From Lachnospiraceae bacterium (GTDB lineage Bacteria > Bacillota > Clostridia > Lachnospirales > Lachnospiraceae), in assembly GCA_029053015.1 (NCBI GenBank), contig JAIDHX010000014.1:45848-109847 (forward strand): a DNA stretch of 64,000 bases, in the 5' to 3' direction. Position 1 is the first letter of the stretch; each line of letters opens with the position of its first letter. Both the position numbers and the translations under genes were made by a program. The notes under the pieces were generated by a model. That model was not told the origin of the DNA, ran no database searches, and saw nothing but the letters and a program-made list of their open reading frames with translations. Positions 29,014 to 39,533 of this stretch are shown here, piece after piece.

Positions 29014-29047
29014 TTTATGAAGAGAATATTAATCTTTTTTTAAGATG
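29014..29047 (+). repeat. Left attachment-site core (34 bp)
   Basis: Identical to 39500..39533. Confidence 0.85.
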
Positions 29048-29091
29048 TAGGTTTCATGAAATCCAGTAAATACGGCATTTTTGTAGAAAGA

Positions 29092-29118
29092 GTGTTACTA
29101 GTAATGTCACTAGTAGAA
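29092..29118 (+). promoter_or_regulatory. Candidate integrase arm-type binding sites (left arm)
   Basis: Tandem GTTACTAGTAA / GTCACTAGTAG, repeated as GTCACTAGTAG x2 at 39383-39409. Confidence 0.5.
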
Positions 29119-29146
29119 AACAGGGGATAAACGTGTTGACGTGTGT

Positions 29147-30322
29147 TTATACCCCTGTTTTTATGGCTTCGACTGCTGCCCTGAGCTGTTCTAAATCCTT
29201 GTGTGTGTATACGGTTTCGTTGATGTCCTGCCCCTTGTGCCCCATGAGTTTATACCGGACTGTACGCTCAACGCCGGCACGGTCAAGCAGCACGTTGAAG
29301 GTGTGGCGGCAGTCGTGTGGCGTATGTTCTGTCAGAATACCGCAGGAGCGCAGGGCATCGTTGAAAAATTCCCTATACCGTGCTTCCGTTATGCTGTCTG
29401 TGTCGGTGTGGTAAATAAGGCTGTCAAAGCGTCGGTCATGCCTGCAGCATACCATGTCATATATGGCTGAATGGATCGGAACGGTTCTGTTACGGCTGTA
29501 GCGGTTCTTTAGCCCGCCCGTGAAGGTGCGTGCCTCAAGGTTGATGTCATTAAGCGGCATGCATGCAAGCTCGTTAATCCGGAAGCCCGAGTAGCAGTAT
29601 ATCAGGATAGTGTCCACAAAGGGAATTTTTCTGTGAGCCCAGAGCGCCTGCAGTTCATCAGGCGTAAAAGGAACGCCGTGCACGTCATCATCAGCCTTGC
29701 TTATCGTCACGTACTGCGAATAGTCTTTCGGTACAAGCTCGAACTGTATTGCATATTTGTACATCTGCCGGAAAAGGTTCCGCATGTGCTCAAGTGTGGC
29801 ATGTGAAAGCTCCTGCAGGTCAAGCAGCGCCTGCAGGTCAACCGCGCGTATGTCCCACATGGGCATATTGTGGAGGGCGGCGCATTTCTTATATGCTGCC
29901 ATGGCACAGTATTGGGCGCTGGTCTTTTTGCCTGCTGCCGTGAATGGTTCCCTGTACTTCCAGAGGTACCATGAAGCGAATACTTCGCTGAACAGCTTCT
30001 TTCTGTCCTGTGGGTTGTATGGCGCCTTGTTGTATTCTGCAAGGGCAATTTCCGCGCTTACCCTGTCCGGATAGCAGGCAAGCACATCATAGACGGGGTA
30101 GCCGTCCTCATTGATACGGGTATTGACGCGTACCTGATACGGGTTCTTCCGCTTCCCGGACAGCTTCACCACCGTGCCGGATCCGTTGGGACGCCGCTTT
30201 TTTGCTTTCCTGCTTATAATAGGCCTGTCGGCAGCAGGCGACAGGGGAAAGCCGCAGTGCGGGCAGAGGTAAGCCCTGCTGCTTATGCTGCCGGAGCACT
30301 CAGGGCATTGTGTCAGTGGCAT
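29147..30322 (-). CDS. int: Tyrosine-type site-specific integrase with an N-terminal zinc ribbon
   Basis: CPECSG...CPHCG at the N-terminus. C-terminal catalytic motifs HDCRHTF, LMGHKG and YTH. Adjacent to the left att core. Confidence 0.9.
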   Translation of the reverse strand: MPLTQCPECSGSISSRAYLCPHCGFPLSPAADRPIISRKAKKRRPNGSGTVVKLSGKRKNPYQVRVNTRINEDGYPVYDVLACYPDRVSAEIALAEYNKAPYNPQDRKKLFSEVFASWYLWKYREPFTAAGKKTSAQYCAMAAYKKCAALHNMPMWDIRAVDLQALLDLQELSHATLEHMRNLFRQMYKYAIQFELVPKDYSQYVTISKADDDVHGVPFTPDELQALWAHRKIPFVDTILIYCYSGFRINELACMPLNDINLEARTFTGGLKNRYSRNRTVPIHSAIYDMVCCRHDRRFDSLIYHTDTDSITEARYREFFNDALRSCGILTEHTPHDCRHTFNVLLDRAGVERTVRYKLMGHKGQDINETVYTHKDLEQLRAAVEAIKTGV

Positions 30323-30518
30323 GTTATCACGCTCCTATCTGCAAAAGGGTATAAAAAATACACCTGTACAAAACAGGTGCAGGAATGGTATAATATGTCT
30401 GTGAGGTGGCATATATACCGGCTGCAAGTGCCTGTATAGTCCTATCAGTGCGGTTCCTGTTGGCGCGGGAACCGCATTATTTATTGACTTTTGAACGTCA
30501 TATTGCTATAATATGCTT

Positions 30519-30616
30519 GACAAGAGAGCCAAAAGCTAGAATACACCTAGCCGCCGGCAGAGTATAGCTTAAAAAATAAGCGCCTTACCTTGCCAGGGCG
30601 GGGGCGCTTATTTTTT
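30519..30616 (+). ncRNA. Candidate antitoxin sRNA of type I TA module 1
   Basis: Consensus promoter TTGACT(30484)-N17-TATAAT(30507). Terminator AATAAGCGCC...GGCGCTTATT plus a T-run. It is convergent with the toxin ORF and overlaps its 3' end. Confidence 0.45.
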
Positions 30617-37195: not shown

Positions 37196-37783
37196 ATGCT
37201 TACGGACAGACAGAGGCGCTTTGTCGGGGAATACCTGATAGACCTTAACGCGACACAGGCCGCAATAAGGGCAGGATACAGCAGGCGGAACGCGGACAAG
37301 ATAGGCTCTGAGCTGCTAGGGAAAACTGGTGTGTCAAGGGCAGTCAGAAGAGCCATGGAGGCACGCGCGCAGCGTACGGGGATAAAGCAGGACCGTGTTA
37401 TCAGGGAACTGGCAGCAGTCGCTTTCTCTGATGTCTCGGATTATGCAAGGGTAGTGGAGAAGCAGGCAGTGCATACCACAGCCGGCGGCAGGCAGATTCC
37501 GCTATTTGACAGCAGGGGGGAGCCTGTCATCATACAGGACGTGGAGCTTGTGCTTACGGACAGCCTTACACCGGATCAGAAAAGGGTGATCTCCGGAATC
37601 AGGAAGGGAAAGTATGGCGTGGAAGTCACGCTATGCGACAAACTACGGGCGCTTGAGCTTCTGGGGCGGCATCTCGGCATGTTCAGCGACAGGGTGGAAG
37701 TGCCGGGGCTCAATGTGGAAATGTCAAAGATGGATGCCTTGATTCTGGAGATGGGCATAAAGGTAGCAGCGGTAAAACTATAA
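37196..37783 (+). CDS. terS: Phage terminase small subunit
   Basis: MLTDRQRRFVGEYLIDLNATQAAIRAGYS...A...GSELL is the Terminase_2-type N-terminal HTH. RBS GGAAAGGAGG. Confidence 0.8.
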   Translation: MLTDRQRRFVGEYLIDLNATQAAIRAGYSRRNADKIGSELLGKTGVSRAVRRAMEARAQRTGIKQDRVIRELAAVAFSDVSDYARVVEKQAVHTTAGGRQIPLFDSRGEPVIIQDVELVLTDSLTPDQKRVISGIRKGKYGVEVTLCDKLRALELLGRHLGMFSDRVEVPGLNVEMSKMDALILEMGIKVAAVKL

Positions 37784-37837
37784 CAAAAATACACCATTCT
37801 TTACGGGGGAAGAAAGAGAAAGCGAGGAAAAAAGGAA

Positions 37838-38476
37838 ATGAGCAGAAAGTCAGAACTGATTAATCTTTTGGAAGGGTATAAAAAGCAGTATGCGGCGCTG
37901 CAGAAGCAGGCAGCAGAGACAAGAAGCAGCACGGCATACACAGAAGAGGGGAGAAGCCAGAAAATTGCGAAACTGGTTGACGGCTTCGCTTCAACGGCAG
38001 AACAATGTCATGACAGGGCTGTCGGGCTGGTGGAAGCAGCGCTTGCTGCCATGTCGGAGAAGTGGAGGCAAGGAAGCACGGGAAAGATTCAGGACGCAGG
38101 GTACCAGGCAGGGCTTGCGAATACCATCAAAATGCTTGAGATGGGAGCCGTGCGGGAAAAAGAGGATATACAGAACATTATAGACAGCTTTACCGGCGAT
38201 TTCAACGCGCTTGCTGTCATAAGAAAAGTGCTGGAGCAGAGCGGTGATGAAGAGCTTGCAGGCTGTGCCGCATTGGTGCCGAAGGATAACCGGGAGTACA
38301 GCAGGCGGCTTCTTGGGCAGCTCAAAACCAATATGGACAGAGATATCAACATACAGGCGGTGCGTGACGCGCTGTATTCACAGCATAATCAGGATTTTGA
38401 CCCCGTTCCGATGGGCATTGAAGGAATGCTGCAGTTCATAACAGACCGCCTTGATGATAATCTGGAGCTTCTGTAG
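37838..38476 (+). CDS. Hypothetical protein (satellite accessory gene)
   Basis: 212-aa ORF, helical, with no recognisable domain. Confidence 0.5.
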   Translation: MSRKSELINLLEGYKKQYAALQKQAAETRSSTAYTEEGRSQKIAKLVDGFASTAEQCHDRAVGLVEAALAAMSEKWRQGSTGKIQDAGYQAGLANTIKMLEMGAVREKEDIQNIIDSFTGDFNALAVIRKVLEQSGDEELAGCAALVPKDNREYSRRLLGQLKTNMDRDINIQAVRDALYSQHNQDFDPVPMGIEGMLQFITDRLDDNLELL

Positions 38477-38502
38477 TAAGGCAGAGTCGCGGGAGGGCAG
38501 GC

Positions 38503-39414
38503 ATGACGAATGAAGAGCTTGTGCGGCTTATCAAAGCCGGTGTTGACAGGGAAAACAACATGCTGCAGCTTTACATACAGGTTAAAGGCTTTATAGGCGC
38601 AATTGCCATGCGTTACCGTGGAAGGGCGGAAATGGAGGATTTGGAGCAGGAGGGCTTCCTTGCCTTGTATGACGCCGTTGAAGGGTATGATTCGGGGCGC
38701 GGGTGTATGTTTCTCACCTATGCCGGCTACTGGATAAAGCGCCGTCTGTCCCAGTATGCAGGCAGAAGCGGCAATGTTGCCGGCTTGTCGGTCGAGGCGG
38801 TAAAAAGTCTGTCCGTATATAAGAACATGGTTAATACATTCCTCCTGTGCATAGGCAGGGAACCCACAAGGCAGGAAACAGCGGAGTGTATGAACGTCCC
38901 GATAAGTCAGGTTGAGGAACTGGAAATGCTTGCCCACATGGAAAAGGCGGAAAGCCTTGAATTGCCTGCTGCCGGCAGCAGGCATGATACAGCGCTGTGT
39001 GACCTGTTGCCGTCTGCTGAGAATCTGGAAGCGGATGTGTTGGAGCAACTGCAGTGTGAACAGCTTTCCCATATCCTGTGGGCACAGGTGAACAGGCTGC
39101 CGGCTGAGCAGGGGTGTGTGATTCGCGCAAAGTATTTAGACGGGCGCACTTACAGGGAAATCAGCGCCGGTATGGGGATAGAAGCGGGAAAGGTAAGGAA
39201 CATTGAACATAATGCACTGTGGAAGCTGCGCCTTTCGCGTGATTCCTGCCTACTCCGTTCTTTTCTTCCGGAGTATGAGGATATCTACAGCAGAGGGATA
39301 AAAGGGAGCGGCTCCCGTCACTTTGATACCACATGGACCAGCTCGACGGAGCGGGTGGCATTGGAGGATATGGCAAGAAAAAGTGTCACTAGTAGTGTCA
39401 CTAGTAGAATTTAA
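38503..39414 (+). CDS. Sigma-70 family RNA polymerase sigma factor
   Basis: Region 2 (DLEQEGFLALYDAVEGYD...FLTYAGYWIKRRL) and region 4 (YREISAGMGIEAGKVRNIEHNALWKLR). The last codons coincide with the right-arm repeats. Confidence 0.8.
   Translation: MTNEELVRLIKAGVDRENNMLQLYIQVKGFIGAIAMRYRGRAEMEDLEQEGFLALYDAVEGYDSGRGCMFLTYAGYWIKRRLSQYAGRSGNVAGLSVEAVKSLSVYKNMVNTFLLCIGREPTRQETAECMNVPISQVEELEMLAHMEKAESLELPAAGSRHDTALCDLLPSAENLEADVLEQLQCEQLSHILWAQVNRLPAEQGCVIRAKYLDGRTYREISAGMGIEAGKVRNIEHNALWKLRLSRDSCLLRSFLPEYEDIYSRGIKGSGSRHFDTTWTSSTERVALEDMARKSVTSSVTSRI
39383..39409 (+). promoter_or_regulatory. Candidate integrase arm-type binding sites (right arm)
   Basis: GTCACTAGTAG at 39385 and 39397, the same motif and orientation as at 29092-29118. 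Confidence 0.5.
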
Positions 39415-39499
39415 TGCAATATTATGGCAAAAATAGTGAAGTAGAGAAAATGTTGTAAAGGCTGGATTTTTCAAAAAATAAATGACGGGAAAACAGGAT

Positions 39500-39533
39500 T
39501 TTATGAAGAGAATATTAATCTTTTTTTAAGATG
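39500..39533 (+). repeat. Right attachment-site core (34 bp)
   Basis: Identical to 29014..29047. Confidence 0.85.

What the first reader, a model, noticed from the sequence alone, without database searches (positions are those of the whole stretch)
29014..39533. 10.5 kb integrated element with the gene content of a phage satellite (PICI-like) rather than a prophage
Perfect 34-bp direct repeats (29014-29047 and 39500-39533) bound a block inserted between spoVAE and an LtaS-like gene.

The block carries:
- A tyrosine integrase with a zinc ribbon.
- Two type I TA-like modules.
- A cI-like repressor and a Cro-like gene with operators.
- Two further HTH proteins.
- An ERF recombinase.
- A replication initiator and an HTH/DnaD-like protein.
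- A DnaC-like loader.
- A small terminase subunit.
- Three unknown ORFs.
- A sigma-70 family factor.

There is no large terminase, portal, capsid, tail, holin or endolysin, and the size is far below a functional tailed phage. The combination int + repressor + replication module + terS-only is the hallmark of phage-inducible chromosomal islands, which hijack helper-phage capsids. Such satellites are, to my knowledge, little characterised in Clostridia/Lachnospiraceae. A sigma factor as cargo is unusual.
Basis: partly seen in the sequence, partly recalled or inferred. Interest (0 to 1): 0.75.

Follow-up and report, generated by a model that had tools for sequence, protein, structure and literature searches.

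The report
Phage satellite island with sigma factor
A 10.5-kb mobile island in a gut Lachnospiraceae genome has the gene set of a phage satellite, a parasite of phages, and belongs to an undescribed family whose hallmark is an unknown protein paired with its own RNA polymerase sigma factor.

Summary
Two exact 34-bp repeats (29014-29047, 39500-39533) bound a 10,486-bp insertion between spoVAE and a sulfatase/LtaS-like gene. Related strains carry the same junction empty, with one att-like copy.

All listed genes were confirmed: integrase, two type I toxin-antitoxin-like modules, cI/cro switch, two HTH proteins, ERF, DnaD-like fragment, initiator, DnaC-like loader, TerS, unknowns and a sigma factor. 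No structural or lysis gene lies inside or beside the island.

Relatives 65-95% identical keep the same small architecture at a different chromosomal site. More distant relatives in Lacrimispora, Faecalimonas, Tyzzerella and Hominifimenecus swap integrase and replication modules. Nearly all keep a 67-aa ORF, the 212-aa unknown and the sigma factor. So the sigma factor is core, not cargo.

Among 50,697 phage records the 212-aa family occurs only in four Streptococcus satellite prophages. In the two examined it precedes a DUF1492 (LtrB-type) late-gene activator.

The TerS is about 60% identical to that of a genuine siphophage.

Best reading: a PICI-like satellite of a new family that redirects helper packaging through TerS and probably reprograms late transcription. 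Excision, helper and packaging remain untested.

The parts
29014..29047 (.). attL core (34-bp direct repeat)
   Evidence: Exact repeat, with 0 expected by chance. A single variant copy sits at the empty site of related strains.
29094..29116 (.). Left arm doublet GTTACTAGTAATGTCACTAGTAG, candidate integrase arm-binding sites
   Evidence: A matching doublet lies near attR (D15). It is conserved at both ends of sibling islands L005 and L031.
29147..30322 (-). Tyrosine integrase with N-terminal CxxC...CxxC zinc-ribbon-like motif
   Evidence: Pfam Phage_integrase 4.5e-14; Zn_ribbon_3 4e-4, below the curated cutoff; phrog_1 2e-38.
30359..30394 (+). Hairpin (a minus-strand terminator ahead of int) followed by a plus-strand TG-extended TATAAT promoter
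   Evidence: It resembles the terminator+promoter cassette found downstream of sigma in other family members.
30481..30784 (-). Type I toxin-antitoxin-like module 1. The toxin ORF at 30608-30697 (-) encodes MVTYSDLFTFVIMLCAVITLVLTLKKRKK. A bidirectional terminator lies at 30571-30616. A convergent plus-strand promoter TTGACT-17-TATAAT lies at 30484-30512.
   Evidence: The peptide is 100% conserved in L005-7 and has one substitution in L031.
30785..31087 (-). Type I toxin-antitoxin-like module 2. The toxin ORF at 30915-31001 (-) encodes MITWVDLFTFIIMLCAVITLVRNDKHKK. A terminator lies at 30880-30924. A convergent plus-strand promoter TTGACA-17-TATAAT lies at 30793-30821.
   Evidence: Tandem duplicate of module 1, 76-83% identical (D4, D12).
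31087..31497 (-). cI/Stl-like repressor (HTH_3; no S24 peptidase domain)
   Evidence: Pfam HTH_3 3e-16.
31550..31631 (.). Switch region with divergent promoters: plus strand TTGACA-17-TATGAT, minus strand TTGACA-17-TATACT. It also holds two AACAAAAATGTACT repeats and a palindrome.
31660..31872 (+). Cro-like HTH (70 aa)
   Evidence: Pfam HTH_26 2e-8; gene call in L013.
31936..32181 (+). Four tandem copies of a family-specific two-hairpin element with the invariant apex GGAAG-CACCAC-CTTCC
   Evidence: Read on the minus strand the copies resemble intrinsic terminators.
32280..32762 (+). HTH protein (160 aa)
   Evidence: Pfam HTH_26 6e-7; gene call.
32911..33138 (+). Small HTH protein (75 aa); a possible regulator or excision factor
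   Evidence: Pfam HTH_3 4e-4, below the curated cutoff. It is 88-97% identical in sibling islands.
33141..33911 (+). ERF single-strand annealing protein
   Evidence: Pfam ERF 1e-40; phrog_155 3e-45.
33931..34242 (+). 103-aa ORF equal to the N-terminal domain of a DnaD-like initiator. It is probably left over from a swap of the initiator's DNA-binding domain.
   Evidence: phrog_8489 positions 1-73 of 296, 8e-26. In L005 this domain is fused to the initiator's C-terminal part in a single 290-aa gene.
34217..35080 (+). Replication initiator (HTH_36). It contains AT-rich iterons at 34502-34655, the probable origin.
   Evidence: Pfam HTH_36 3e-10; phrog_1032 2e-17. Repeats D2 and D17. GC dip.
35095..36117 (+). 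DnaC/IstB-like helicase loader
   Evidence: phrog_50 8e-42; Pfam IstB_IS21.
35984..36050 (+). Fifth copy of the two-hairpin element, just upstream of the 179-aa ORF
36086..36625 (+). 179-aa orphan protein
   Evidence: No Pfam, PHROG, NCBIfam or PADLOC hit. Only 3 clusters among 5.8 billion, all in sibling islands. The AF2 model was unusable, pLDDT 42.
36811..37014 (+). 67-aa ORF, family core gene 1
   Evidence: tblastn hits of 41-91% identity in 18 of 20 related island loci, always upstream of the u212 gene. No family annotation.
37196..37783 (+). Small terminase subunit (Terminase_2)
   Evidence: Pfam 1e-38; phrog_51 1e-38. It is ~60% identical to the TerS of siphophage L029, which is followed there by terL, portal, scaffold and MCP.
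37838..38476 (+). 212-aa all-alpha protein ('u212'), family core gene 2 and a satellite-restricted family
   Evidence: 57 clusters. 171 representatives among 1.84 billion. AF2 pLDDT 86, all helical. No PDB fold match. In the phage database it occurs only in Streptococcus satellite prophages.
38503..39414 (+). Sigma-70 family factor (regions 2, 3 and 4), family core gene 3. Its last codons run into the right arm repeats.
   Evidence: Pfam r2 4e-12, r4 6e-11, r3 2e-4; phrog_351 1e-34. A recognisable sigma lies downstream of u212 in every related island locus checked except L027 and the short L023 contig.
39385..39407 (.). Right arm doublet GTCACTAGTAGTGTCACTAGTAG
   Evidence: (D15).
39500..39533 (.). 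attR core (34-bp direct repeat)

Best explanation
The block is an integrated phage satellite, PICI-like in lifestyle. It belongs to a previously undescribed family of Lachnospiraceae islands.

**Shown**
- It is a precise 10,486-bp insertion bounded by att cores, with conserved arm repeats.
- It encodes integration, immunity, replication and TerS functions, and no virion or lysis genes.
- Its relatives form a mosaic family of equally small islands.

**Inferred life cycle**
1. In the resting state the cI-like repressor silences the rightward operon. Two type I toxin-antitoxin modules discourage loss.
2. A helper siphophage lifts repression, probably through an anti-repressor, because the repressor lacks a self-cleavage domain.
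3. The rightward operon then expresses regulators, ERF, the initiator and the DnaC-like loader. Replication starts from AT-rich iterons inside the initiator gene. The integrase excises the island at the 34-bp cores.
4. The island's TerS, a close relative of genuine siphophage TerS proteins, pairs with the helper's large terminase. Island concatemers are then packaged into helper capsids.
5. The conserved pair of 212-aa protein plus sigma factor acts on late transcription. The sigma factor directs host RNA polymerase to late promoters, either the helper's morphogenesis and lysis operon or the island's own packaging genes. The 212-aa protein is its partner or modulator.
For: **Precise insertion**
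- Exact att repeats are present.
- Related strains carry the empty site.

**No virion or lysis genes**
- Every ORF of 60 aa or more was scanned, and only TerS is packaging-related.
- The flanks are chromosomal.

**Conserved small architecture**
- Siblings L005-7 and L031 share it at 65-95% protein identity, at a different att site. They have a related core ((A)TTTAAGAATCAGTTAA) and the same arm doublets.
- Distant relatives exchange integrase and replication modules (DUF927, or D5_N primase-helicase, or initiator plus DnaC). Most keep the 67-aa ORF (18 of 20 island loci) and a recognisable sigma (all but L027 and a short contig) alongside u212.
- The variable slots carry FRG, PemK, DUF4417, AIPR and PIN genes, not structural genes.

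**Satellite-restricted marker**
- The u212 family occurs in 4 of 50,697 phage records. All four are Streptococcus satellite prophages.
- In Javan343 and Javan368 it is followed by a DUF1492 protein at 42.7 and 43.6 bits against a cutoff of 21.5.
- DUF1492 is the LtrB family, shown to activate late operons of Gram-positive phages (PMC3753634).

**Phage links**
- The sigma matches the phage sigma family phrog_351 at 1e-34.
- The TerS is ~60% identical to that of a siphophage carrying terL, portal, scaffold, MCP and tail genes.
- One relative abuts a truncated siphophage whose intact relatives carry a Terminase_2-type TerS.
Against: - No helper phage has been identified.
- There is no direct evidence of excision, circles or packaging. 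An exact search for the attP junction found nothing in JGI metagenomes or IMG/VR, though this test has low power.
- No recognisable excisionase, primase-replicase or capsid-size factor is present, so only 3 of the 5 SatelliteFinder PICI core components are met (PMC10085698).
- TerS is absent from most family members, so packaging redirection through TerS cannot be the family's common mechanism.
- ERF and a lambda-type initiator-loader pair are typical of temperate phages. They are compatible with origin from a prophage's early region.
- The role assigned to u212 and sigma rests on gene neighbourhood and family membership only. No target promoter was identified.
Confidence: 0.72

Rival explanations
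1. The island is a defective prophage remnant. On this view it is the early (lysogeny, replication, TerS) half of a temperate siphophage that lost its structural and lysis genes by deletion. It persists as an immobile or only excisable relic.
For: - The cI/cro switch, ERF, initiator plus DnaC loader, TerS and a phage-type sigma (phrog_351) are all ordinary temperate-phage early or late-regulatory genes.
- One relative (L032/L034) has the island directly joined to a siphophage structural block beginning inside the major capsid gene.
Against: - The right att core lies 86 bp after the sigma gene, and the empty site shows an exact insertion. A deletion would therefore have had to regenerate perfect ends.
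- The same small architecture, with all ORFs intact, recurs at 65-95% identity at another chromosomal site. It also recurs, with swapped modules, in at least 10 other species.
- None of 79 bona fide phages sharing the L032 tail module carries u212, the 67-aa ORF or the sigma.
- The u212 family is absent from all non-satellite phage records.
- The L032 structural block is itself truncated. It lacks terS, terL, portal, scaffold and the MCP N-terminus when compared with intact L041.
Confidence: 0.12
2. The island is a non-transducing integrative element, such as a phage-derived regulatory or defence island. On this view the sigma factor and HTH proteins act on host or invading-phage genes, and the TerS is a decoy that aborts phage packaging. 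Spread would be rare and by other means.
For: - Relatives carry defence-like or toxin cargo: AIPR, PIN, PemK and FRG.
- The sigma domain resembles that of the MzaA anti-phage system sigma, at 5e-15 in PADLOC and far below the family cutoff in NCBIfam.
- The island sits in a sporulation-gene neighbourhood.
- Satellites are known to interfere with their helpers (own knowledge of SaPI Ppi and Pti proteins).
Against: - The window's island has no recognisable defence system.
- A full autonomous replication module, ERF and an intact phage-like TerS are hard to explain without a replicate-and-package life cycle.
- Interference and satellite lifestyle are not mutually exclusive.
- The insertion is intergenic and does not interrupt a sporulation gene.
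Confidence: 0.1
3. The island is an integrative mobilizable element that moves by conjugation, using a co-resident conjugative element.
For: It is a small integrase-bearing island with its own replication genes. Some Firmicutes conjugative transposons carry sigma-like regulators (own knowledge of Tn916 orf7).
Against: No relaxase, coupling protein or oriT-associated gene was found in any ORF. The packaging gene terS and phage-type modules point to capsid transfer.
Confidence: 0.03

Closest known systems
[quoted passage not shown]
   Same: - Size of about 10-15 kb, flanked by att repeats.
- Leftward integrase and repressor, with a divergent rightward operon.
- Autonomous replication module.
- A phage-related TerS with no terL or other virion genes.
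- No lysis genes.
   Different: - Replication uses an HTH_36/DnaD-like initiator plus a DnaC-like loader and ERF, instead of a primase-replicase.
- There is no homologue of the Cpm, Ppi or Pti proteins.
- It carries a full-length sigma factor and the u212 protein as conserved core genes.
- It carries type I toxin-antitoxin modules.
- No protein other than the generic domains matches known PICIs.
Streptococcus satellite prophages Javan328, 343, 354 and 368 (S. mitis and S. oralis; Rezaei Javan et al. 2019)
   Same: - They are the only records in the phage collection that encode u212 homologues, at 23-29% identity.
- The gene order is the same in the three records whose annotation was read: int, repressor, replication genes, then u212 near the right end.
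- In Javan343 and Javan368 the u212 homologue is followed by a sigma-region-4-like late activator, DUF1492/LtrB.
   Different: - They belong to a different bacterial class.
- They have no annotated TerS.
- Their activator is a 139-aa DUF1492 protein rather than a 303-aa sigma with regions 2-4.
- Their replication genes differ: DNA primase, RepA helicase or DnaI loader.
Satellite P4 (delta transactivation of P2 late genes)
   Same: It works like P4 only in the proposed step, in which a satellite-encoded transcription factor switches on helper late genes so that virions are made for the satellite (own knowledge).
   Different: There is no sequence relationship. P4 delta is a zinc-finger activator, not a sigma factor. 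The P4 core genes (psu, sid, alpA, alpha primase) are absent.
Late-operon activators of Gram-positive phages (RinA, ArpU, LtrA, LtrB, LtrC; Quiles-Puchalt et al. 2013, PMC3753634)
   Same: They are sigma-related proteins encoded next to terS. They are required for packaging and lysis gene transcription, and hence for SaPI transfer. The Streptococcus counterpart of the island's sigma is an LtrB (DUF1492) member.
   Different: Those are phage-encoded, about 140 aa long, and carry region-4-like domains only. Here the factor is satellite-encoded and is a complete sigma (r2-r3-r4) lying downstream of terS.

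Membership tests
PICI (five core components of SatelliteFinder, de Sousa et al. 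2023, PMC10085698) | Integrase at one end, with flanking att repeats | tested here: met
   Phage_integrase domain. Exact 34-bp repeats. Empty site in relatives.
PICI (five core components of SatelliteFinder, de Sousa et al. 2023, PMC10085698) | Regulation module (an Stl, AlpA or MerR homologue) controlling a divergent operon | tested here: inconclusive
   A cI-like HTH_3 repressor and a cro-like gene with divergent promoters are present. Homology to Stl or AlpA profiles was not tested, and the arrangement is only analogous.
PICI (five core components of SatelliteFinder, de Sousa et al. 2023, PMC10085698) | Primase-replicase module | tested here: not met
   The window's island has an HTH_36/DnaD-like initiator plus a DnaC/IstB-like loader and no primase. 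Some family relatives do carry DUF927 or D5_N primase-helicases.
PICI (five core components of SatelliteFinder, de Sousa et al. 2023, PMC10085698) | Capsid morphogenesis (size-redirection) gene | tested here: inconclusive
   - No Pfam, PHROG or NCBIfam hit for the unknowns.
- u212 is all-alpha, but it is not homologous to the scaffold of the related phage.
- u212 has no PDB fold match.
- SaPIs also lack the Proteobacterial version of this component.
PICI (five core components of SatelliteFinder, de Sousa et al. 2023, PMC10085698) | Small terminase subunit | tested here: met
   Terminase_2 at 1e-38, full length.
PICI (five core components of SatelliteFinder, de Sousa et al. 2023, PMC10085698) | Absence of tail, holin, portal and connector genes | tested here: met
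   All ORFs and both flanks were scanned and none was found.
PICI (functional definition) | Induction by a helper phage, followed by excision, replication and packaging in helper-derived particles | not testable with these tools
   Only indirect evidence exists: the empty-site polymorphism. The attP junction search was negative.
Capsid-forming PICI | Own capsid, portal, head-tail connector and terL genes | tested here: not met
   None is present in the island.
P4-like satellites | Core genes psu, delta, sid, alpA, epsilon and alpha primase | not tested
   Specific profiles were not available. No ORF has a primase or AlpA-type domain in the Pfam or PHROG scans.
u212-sigma island family (defined here) | A small int-bearing island with the 67-aa ORF, a u212 homologue and a downstream sigma or sigma-like activator, in that order on one strand | tested here: met
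   Window coordinates are 36811-37014, 37838-38476 and 38503-39414. The same order is seen in L005-10, L018-22, L024-26, L028 and L031-33.
Type I toxin-antitoxin systems | A small hydrophobic toxin peptide whose mRNA overlaps a convergent antisense RNA | tested here: inconclusive
   The following are present: a 28-29-aa hydrophobic peptide with a basic tail, a Shine-Dalgarno sequence, a convergent consensus promoter and a shared bidirectional terminator. The peptide is conserved. There is no Rfam match, and toxicity and the antisense RNA are untested.

The most novel reading that the evidence does not exclude
The gene pair of u212 plus a sigma or sigma-like activator may be a satellite-specific module for taking over late transcription. 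It is shared by otherwise unrelated satellites of Lachnospiraceae and of oral streptococci.

On this reading the satellite brings its own sigma factor, or an LtrB-type activator in streptococci, to switch on the helper's morphogenesis and lysis operon. This would be independent of, or in competition with, the helper's own activator, with u212 as the specificity or anti-activator partner. It would be a Gram-positive counterpart of P4 delta. It would also be the first case of a phage satellite encoding a complete sigma factor as a core hijacking function.

The family-specific two-hairpin element (apex GGAAG-CACCAC-CTTCC) could be the cis site through which this module, or read-through of the operon, is controlled.
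Probability: 0.3. Interest if true: 0.8.

Novelty: new variant of a known kind. Interest (0 to 1): 0.62.

Why it matters
**Gap in current knowledge.** Phage satellites shape phage-bacterium dynamics, gene transfer and defence. Described families come almost entirely from Proteobacteria, Bacilli and Actinobacteria. My searches of the paper library found no description of this island family in gut Lachnospiraceae.

**A missed family.** This island defines a family seen here in at least six named genera, plus unclassified Lachnospiraceae and Bacillota MAGs. By my count of its components it would meet only 3 of the 5 PICI core components. Clusters at that level were set aside as too uncertain in the SatelliteFinder survey.

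**A practical marker.** The u212 protein next to a sigma or Ltr-type activator gives a usable marker for finding such elements.

**An untested hijacking strategy.** Satellite-encoded control of late transcription could be tested directly in cultivable Lacrimispora or in Streptococcus oralis and S. mitis.

**Annotation.** These islands are also likely to be mis-annotated as incomplete prophages in gut metagenome surveys.

Tried and rejected
- **DNA similarity to phages.** Megablast of the whole island against 50,697 phage records gave no match.
- **Known RNA families.** An Rfam scan of the island found nothing above noise.
- **u212 as a scaffolding or size-redirection protein.**
  - Profile comparison with the scaffold of the TerS-related phage gave probability 0.5%.
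  - Foldseek found no PDB match.
  - In BFVD only two unnamed viral proteins scored well, probably the Streptococcus satellite proteins. That identity is inferred from the accession series, not checked.
  - The scaffold idea is therefore unsupported but not excluded.
- **u179.**
  - It has only three clusters in 5.8 billion proteins.
  - The AlphaFold model has pLDDT 42 and was not searched further.
- **Defence function.** PADLOC gave only generic domain matches: the sigma to the MzaA sigma domain and the repressor to HTH regulators.
- **Circular or excised form.**
  - An exact attP junction pattern had 0 hits in JGI metagenomes and IMG/VR.
  - The 9,975-bp Logan contig holding only the island ends inside the 34-bp repeat. 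It is explained by assembly breaking at a repeat longer than the k-mer, not by a circle.
- **Structural genes next to a relative (L032).** These turned out to be a 5'-truncated prophage colinear with intact phages that lack the island genes. This was rejected as evidence that the family is decayed prophage.
- **Consensus fold of the two-hairpin element.** RNAalifold on the raw alignment was weak, with 6 pairs and no compensatory changes counted, because of indels. Copies folded singly all give the same architecture. No covariance model was built.
- **Distant u212 homologues.** Contexts for P0133 and P0097 were on contigs too short to be informative.

Full report
**1. The observation**

The 34-bp sequence TTTATGAAGAGAATATTAATCTTTTTTTAAGATG occurs exactly twice in the 64-kb window, at 29014-29047 and 39500-39533. 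No match was expected in 100 dinucleotide-preserving shuffles. The unit length is 10,486 bp.

The left copy lies 22 bp after the stop codon of a SpoVAC/SpoVAEB-family gene (28636-28992). The right copy lies 58 bp before a 742-aa sulfatase-domain (LtaS-like) gene.

The best confirmation came from looking up the identical 118-aa SpoVAE protein in public assemblies. Several contigs from other samples (L012, L014, L015, L017) have spoVAE followed directly by the sulfatase gene. A 161-kb contig (L013) has the island. At the empty sites there is one copy of a variant core, TTTATAAAGAAAATATTAATCTTTTTTTAAAATG, flanked by the same left and right sequences as in the window. The block is therefore a precise insertion that is present or absent among related strains. 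The host is an uncultured Lachnospiraceae bacterium.

**2. Gene content**

| Coordinates | Gene |
|---|---|
| 29147-30322 (-) | Tyrosine integrase with an N-terminal four-cysteine motif |
| 31087-31497 (-) | cI-like HTH repressor without a peptidase domain |
| 31660-31872 | Cro-like HTH |
| 32280-32762, 32911-33138 | Two further HTH proteins |
| 33141-33911 | ERF annealing protein |
| 33931-34242 | 103-aa ORF matching only the first 73 positions of DnaD-like initiator profiles |
| 34217-35080 | HTH_36 replication initiator |
| 35095-36117 | DnaC/IstB-like loader |
| 36086-36625 | 179-aa orphan |
| 36811-37014 | 67-aa ORF |
| 37196-37783 | Full-length Terminase_2 small terminase |
| 37838-38476 | 212-aa unknown ('u212') |
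| 38503-39414 | 303-aa sigma-70 family protein with regions 2, 3 and 4 |

Other features:
- In sibling island L005 the DnaD-like N-terminal domain is fused to the initiator's C-terminal part in one 290-aa gene. The 103-aa ORF therefore looks like the leftover of a swap of the DNA-binding domain.
- AT-rich iterons inside the initiator gene (34502-34655) coincide with a GC dip. They are the probable origin.
- cI and cro are separated by face-to-face near-consensus promoters, two AACAAAAATGTACT repeats and a palindrome.

No ORF matches a large terminase, portal, capsid, tail, holin or endolysin. The ten flanking genes tested are ordinary chromosomal genes.

**3. The int-cI gap**

The 765-bp gap that gene callers leave empty holds two tandem ~304-bp units. 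Each unit has:
- a minus-strand Shine-Dalgarno sequence and a 28-29-aa hydrophobic peptide with a basic tail (MVTYSDLFTFVIMLCAVITLVLTLKKRKK and MITWVDLFTFIIMLCAVITLVRNDKHKK);
- a bidirectional terminator hairpin;
- a convergent plus-strand promoter (TTGACT-17-TATAAT, and TTGACA-17-TATAAT at 12/12) that would give a short antisense RNA.

The first peptide is 100% conserved in islands L005-7 and differs at one residue in L031. Other proteins of those islands are only 65-90% identical.

**4. Relatives: a family of small islands**

*The u212 family.* The u212 protein has 57 cluster-level homologues. It has 171 representatives at E ≤ 0.001 among 1.84 billion proteins.

*Context.* Every context recovered on a contig long enough to judge is a small integrase-bearing island.

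*Siblings.* L005-7 and L031 are colinear with the window gene for gene. They sit between a BlaI-like gene and an ABC transporter, not at spoVAE. Their att core is (A)TTTAAGAATCAGTTAA. They carry the same GTCACTAGTA doublets near both ends, which I take to be integrase arm sites.

*Distant members.* These come from:
- Lacrimispora;
- Clostridium sp. ASBs410;
- Faecalimonas;
- Tyzzerella;
- Hominifimenecus;
- MAGs labelled Paenibacillaceae, uncultured Ruminococcus and Bacillota.

They have different integrases and different replication modules: a DUF927 or D5_N primase-helicase, or an initiator plus DnaC.

*Core genes.* Nearly all retain three genes in the same order: the 67-aa ORF, u212 and the sigma factor. 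The 67-aa ORF was found in 18 of 20 island loci. The sigma was found in all but L027, which has only a weak Sigma70_r2 match, and the 1.5-kb L023 contig.

*TerS.* It is found only in the window's sub-lineage. In other members the same slot holds FRG-domain, PemK, DUF4417 or unknown genes. AIPR or PIN genes follow the sigma.

The sigma factor is thus a core gene of the family, not cargo. TerS is an accessory.

**5. The one apparent exception**

In IMG/VR contig UViG_2524614847_000001 (L032/L034) the island is followed by head-tail genes. Comparison with 79 phages sharing that tail protein shows two things. None of them carries u212, the 67-aa ORF or the sigma. Thirty-five have a Terminase_2 TerS about 8 kb upstream of the tail gene.

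Against intact L041, the L034 block is colinear only from the C-terminal 249 residues of the major capsid protein onward. It lacks terS, terL, portal, morphogenesis protein and scaffold. The simplest reading is an island abutting a truncated prophage, not a decayed version of a larger island.

**6. Links to known satellites and to phages**

- By tblastn against 50,697 phage records, u212 matches only hypothetical proteins of Streptococcus satellite prophages Javan328, 343 and 368. A search with the Javan368 protein adds Javan354 and no true phage.
- In the three records whose annotation was read, the gene sits near the right end, after the replication genes.
- In Javan343 and Javan368 the next gene encodes a 139-aa protein. 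It passes the Pfam DUF1492 threshold (42.7 and 43.6 bits; cutoff 21.5) and weakly matches sigma region 4 and ArpU.
- DUF1492 is the LtrB family. It is one of the families shown by Quiles-Puchalt et al. (PMC3753634) to activate the late (terS-to-lysis) operon of Gram-positive phages. SaPI1 transfer depends on correct expression of that operon.
- The pairing of u212 with a sigma-type late activator therefore recurs in two distant bacterial groups, always in satellite-like islands.
- The island's sigma matches the phage sigma family phrog_351 at 1e-34.
- The island's TerS has its nearest non-island relatives, about 60% identical, in a genuine siphophage. There it is followed by terL, portal, a minor capsid protein, scaffold, major head protein and tail genes.

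**7. What u212 and u179 are not**

- The AlphaFold model of u212 is confident (pLDDT 86) and entirely helical, with a long N-terminal helical hairpin.
- It has no significant PDB neighbour. In BFVD it resembles only two unnamed viral proteins, probably the Streptococcus satellite proteins. That identity is inferred from their accession series, not checked.
- It is not homologous to the scaffold of the TerS-related phage.
- Neither u212 nor u179 matches Pfam, PHROG, NCBIfam or PADLOC models.
- u179 exists only in the three sibling lineages. Its model is unusable.

**8. Mechanism**

*Shown:*
- precise integration with att cores and arm repeats;
- a complete lysogeny switch;
- a complete replication module;
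- a phage-type TerS;
- no virion or lysis genes;
- a conserved small-island family.

*Inferred:*
- helper-triggered derepression, since the repressor has no self-cleavage domain;
- replication from the iterons in the initiator gene;
- excision by the integrase with an unidentified directionality factor;
- TerS-directed packaging of concatemers by a helper terminase;
- a role for the u212-sigma pair in late transcription.

At 10.5 kb, about four copies would fill a 40-kb headful. A size-redirection function is therefore possible but not required.

I put 0.72 on the satellite reading as a whole. I put about 0.3 on the specific idea that the sigma factor activates helper late genes.

**9. Comparison with known kinds**

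The island works like a Gram-positive PICI. It would meet only three of the five SatelliteFinder core components: integrase, regulator by analogy, and TerS. It lacks a primase-replicase and a recognisable capsid morphogenesis gene (PMC10085698). That survey set such three-component 'Type C' clusters aside as too uncertain, while noting they may hide undescribed families.

Literature searches found no description of satellites with a sigma factor, or of this family in Lachnospiraceae. I therefore rate it a new variant of a known kind.

**10. Limits**

- No helper is identified.
- Exact attP junction searches were negative in two collections, though with little power.
- The function of u212, the 67-aa ORF, u179 and the two-hairpin element is unknown.
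- All mechanistic steps beyond gene identity are inference.

Noticed in passing
window 31936-32181 (4 copies) and 35984-36050; also L005, L031, L008 7821, L010 7880, L020 5771, L021 5762, L032 8043, L115: A family-specific two-hairpin element lies always on the coding strand. Hairpin 1 has an invariant apex (GGAAG-CACCAC-CTTCC) on a variable, compensating basal stem. A variable GC-rich hairpin 2 follows. In single-copy members the element lies between the replication module and the 67-aa ORF. Read on the minus strand, the copies look like intrinsic terminators because the 5' flank is A-rich. There is no Rfam match. The motif occurs in only 2 of 2.9 million IMG/VR contigs, both carrying the same element context. 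Its function is unknown.
   Followed up: partly
L008 12928, L010 12446, L018 13348, L019 13701, L020 13370, L021 13395, L032 12445 and 14121, L033 14055; window 30357-30394: A conserved cassette lies downstream of the sigma gene in most family members. It consists of the hairpin ACACCTGTCGAAAGATGGGTGT with a T-run (a terminator), followed by a TG-extended TATGAT promoter that drives the cargo gene. In the window, L005 and L031 a related hairpin plus a TGGTATAAT promoter sits instead between int and the toxin-antitoxin modules.
   Followed up: partly
L032 / L034 (IMG/VR UViG_2524614847_000001): A family member is fused to a siphophage structural block that begins inside the major capsid gene. 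The block lacks terS, terL, portal and scaffold. This suggests a deletion or recombination between an island and a neighbouring, possibly helper-type, prophage.
   Followed up: partly
window 38503-39414 / 39385-39407: The sigma ORF has a ~45-aa C-terminal tail beyond region 4. Its last codons (…SVTSSVTSRI) are encoded by the GTCACTAGTAG arm-repeat doublet, so the gene end and the putative integrase arm sites overlap.
   Followed up: no
window 24805-28992; L012 1-6357: spoVAD and spoVAE are separated by about 2.8 kb holding a Mor-like ORF, DUF1062, RidA and shikimate kinase genes. In one empty-site strain (L012) the region upstream of the Mor-like gene carries a DNA methylase, an Eco47II-type restriction enzyme and Kiwa (KwaA and KwaB), where the window has spoVAD. 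This neighbourhood is a variable hotspot.
   Followed up: no
L028 9355-9996 and 10001-10660 (Hominifimenecus microfluidus): Two tandem paralogues of u212 (27% and 35% identical to the window protein) precede the sigma gene.
   Followed up: no
L008 9720-9983, L010 9784-9999, L032 9747-9983: Many family members encode a cold-shock-domain protein immediately upstream of u212. The window's island has TerS in that position instead.
   Followed up: no
window 9001-12000, 43001-49000, 55001-58000: Several stretches have markedly lower GC (0.34-0.40) than the window average. They were not examined.
   Followed up: no
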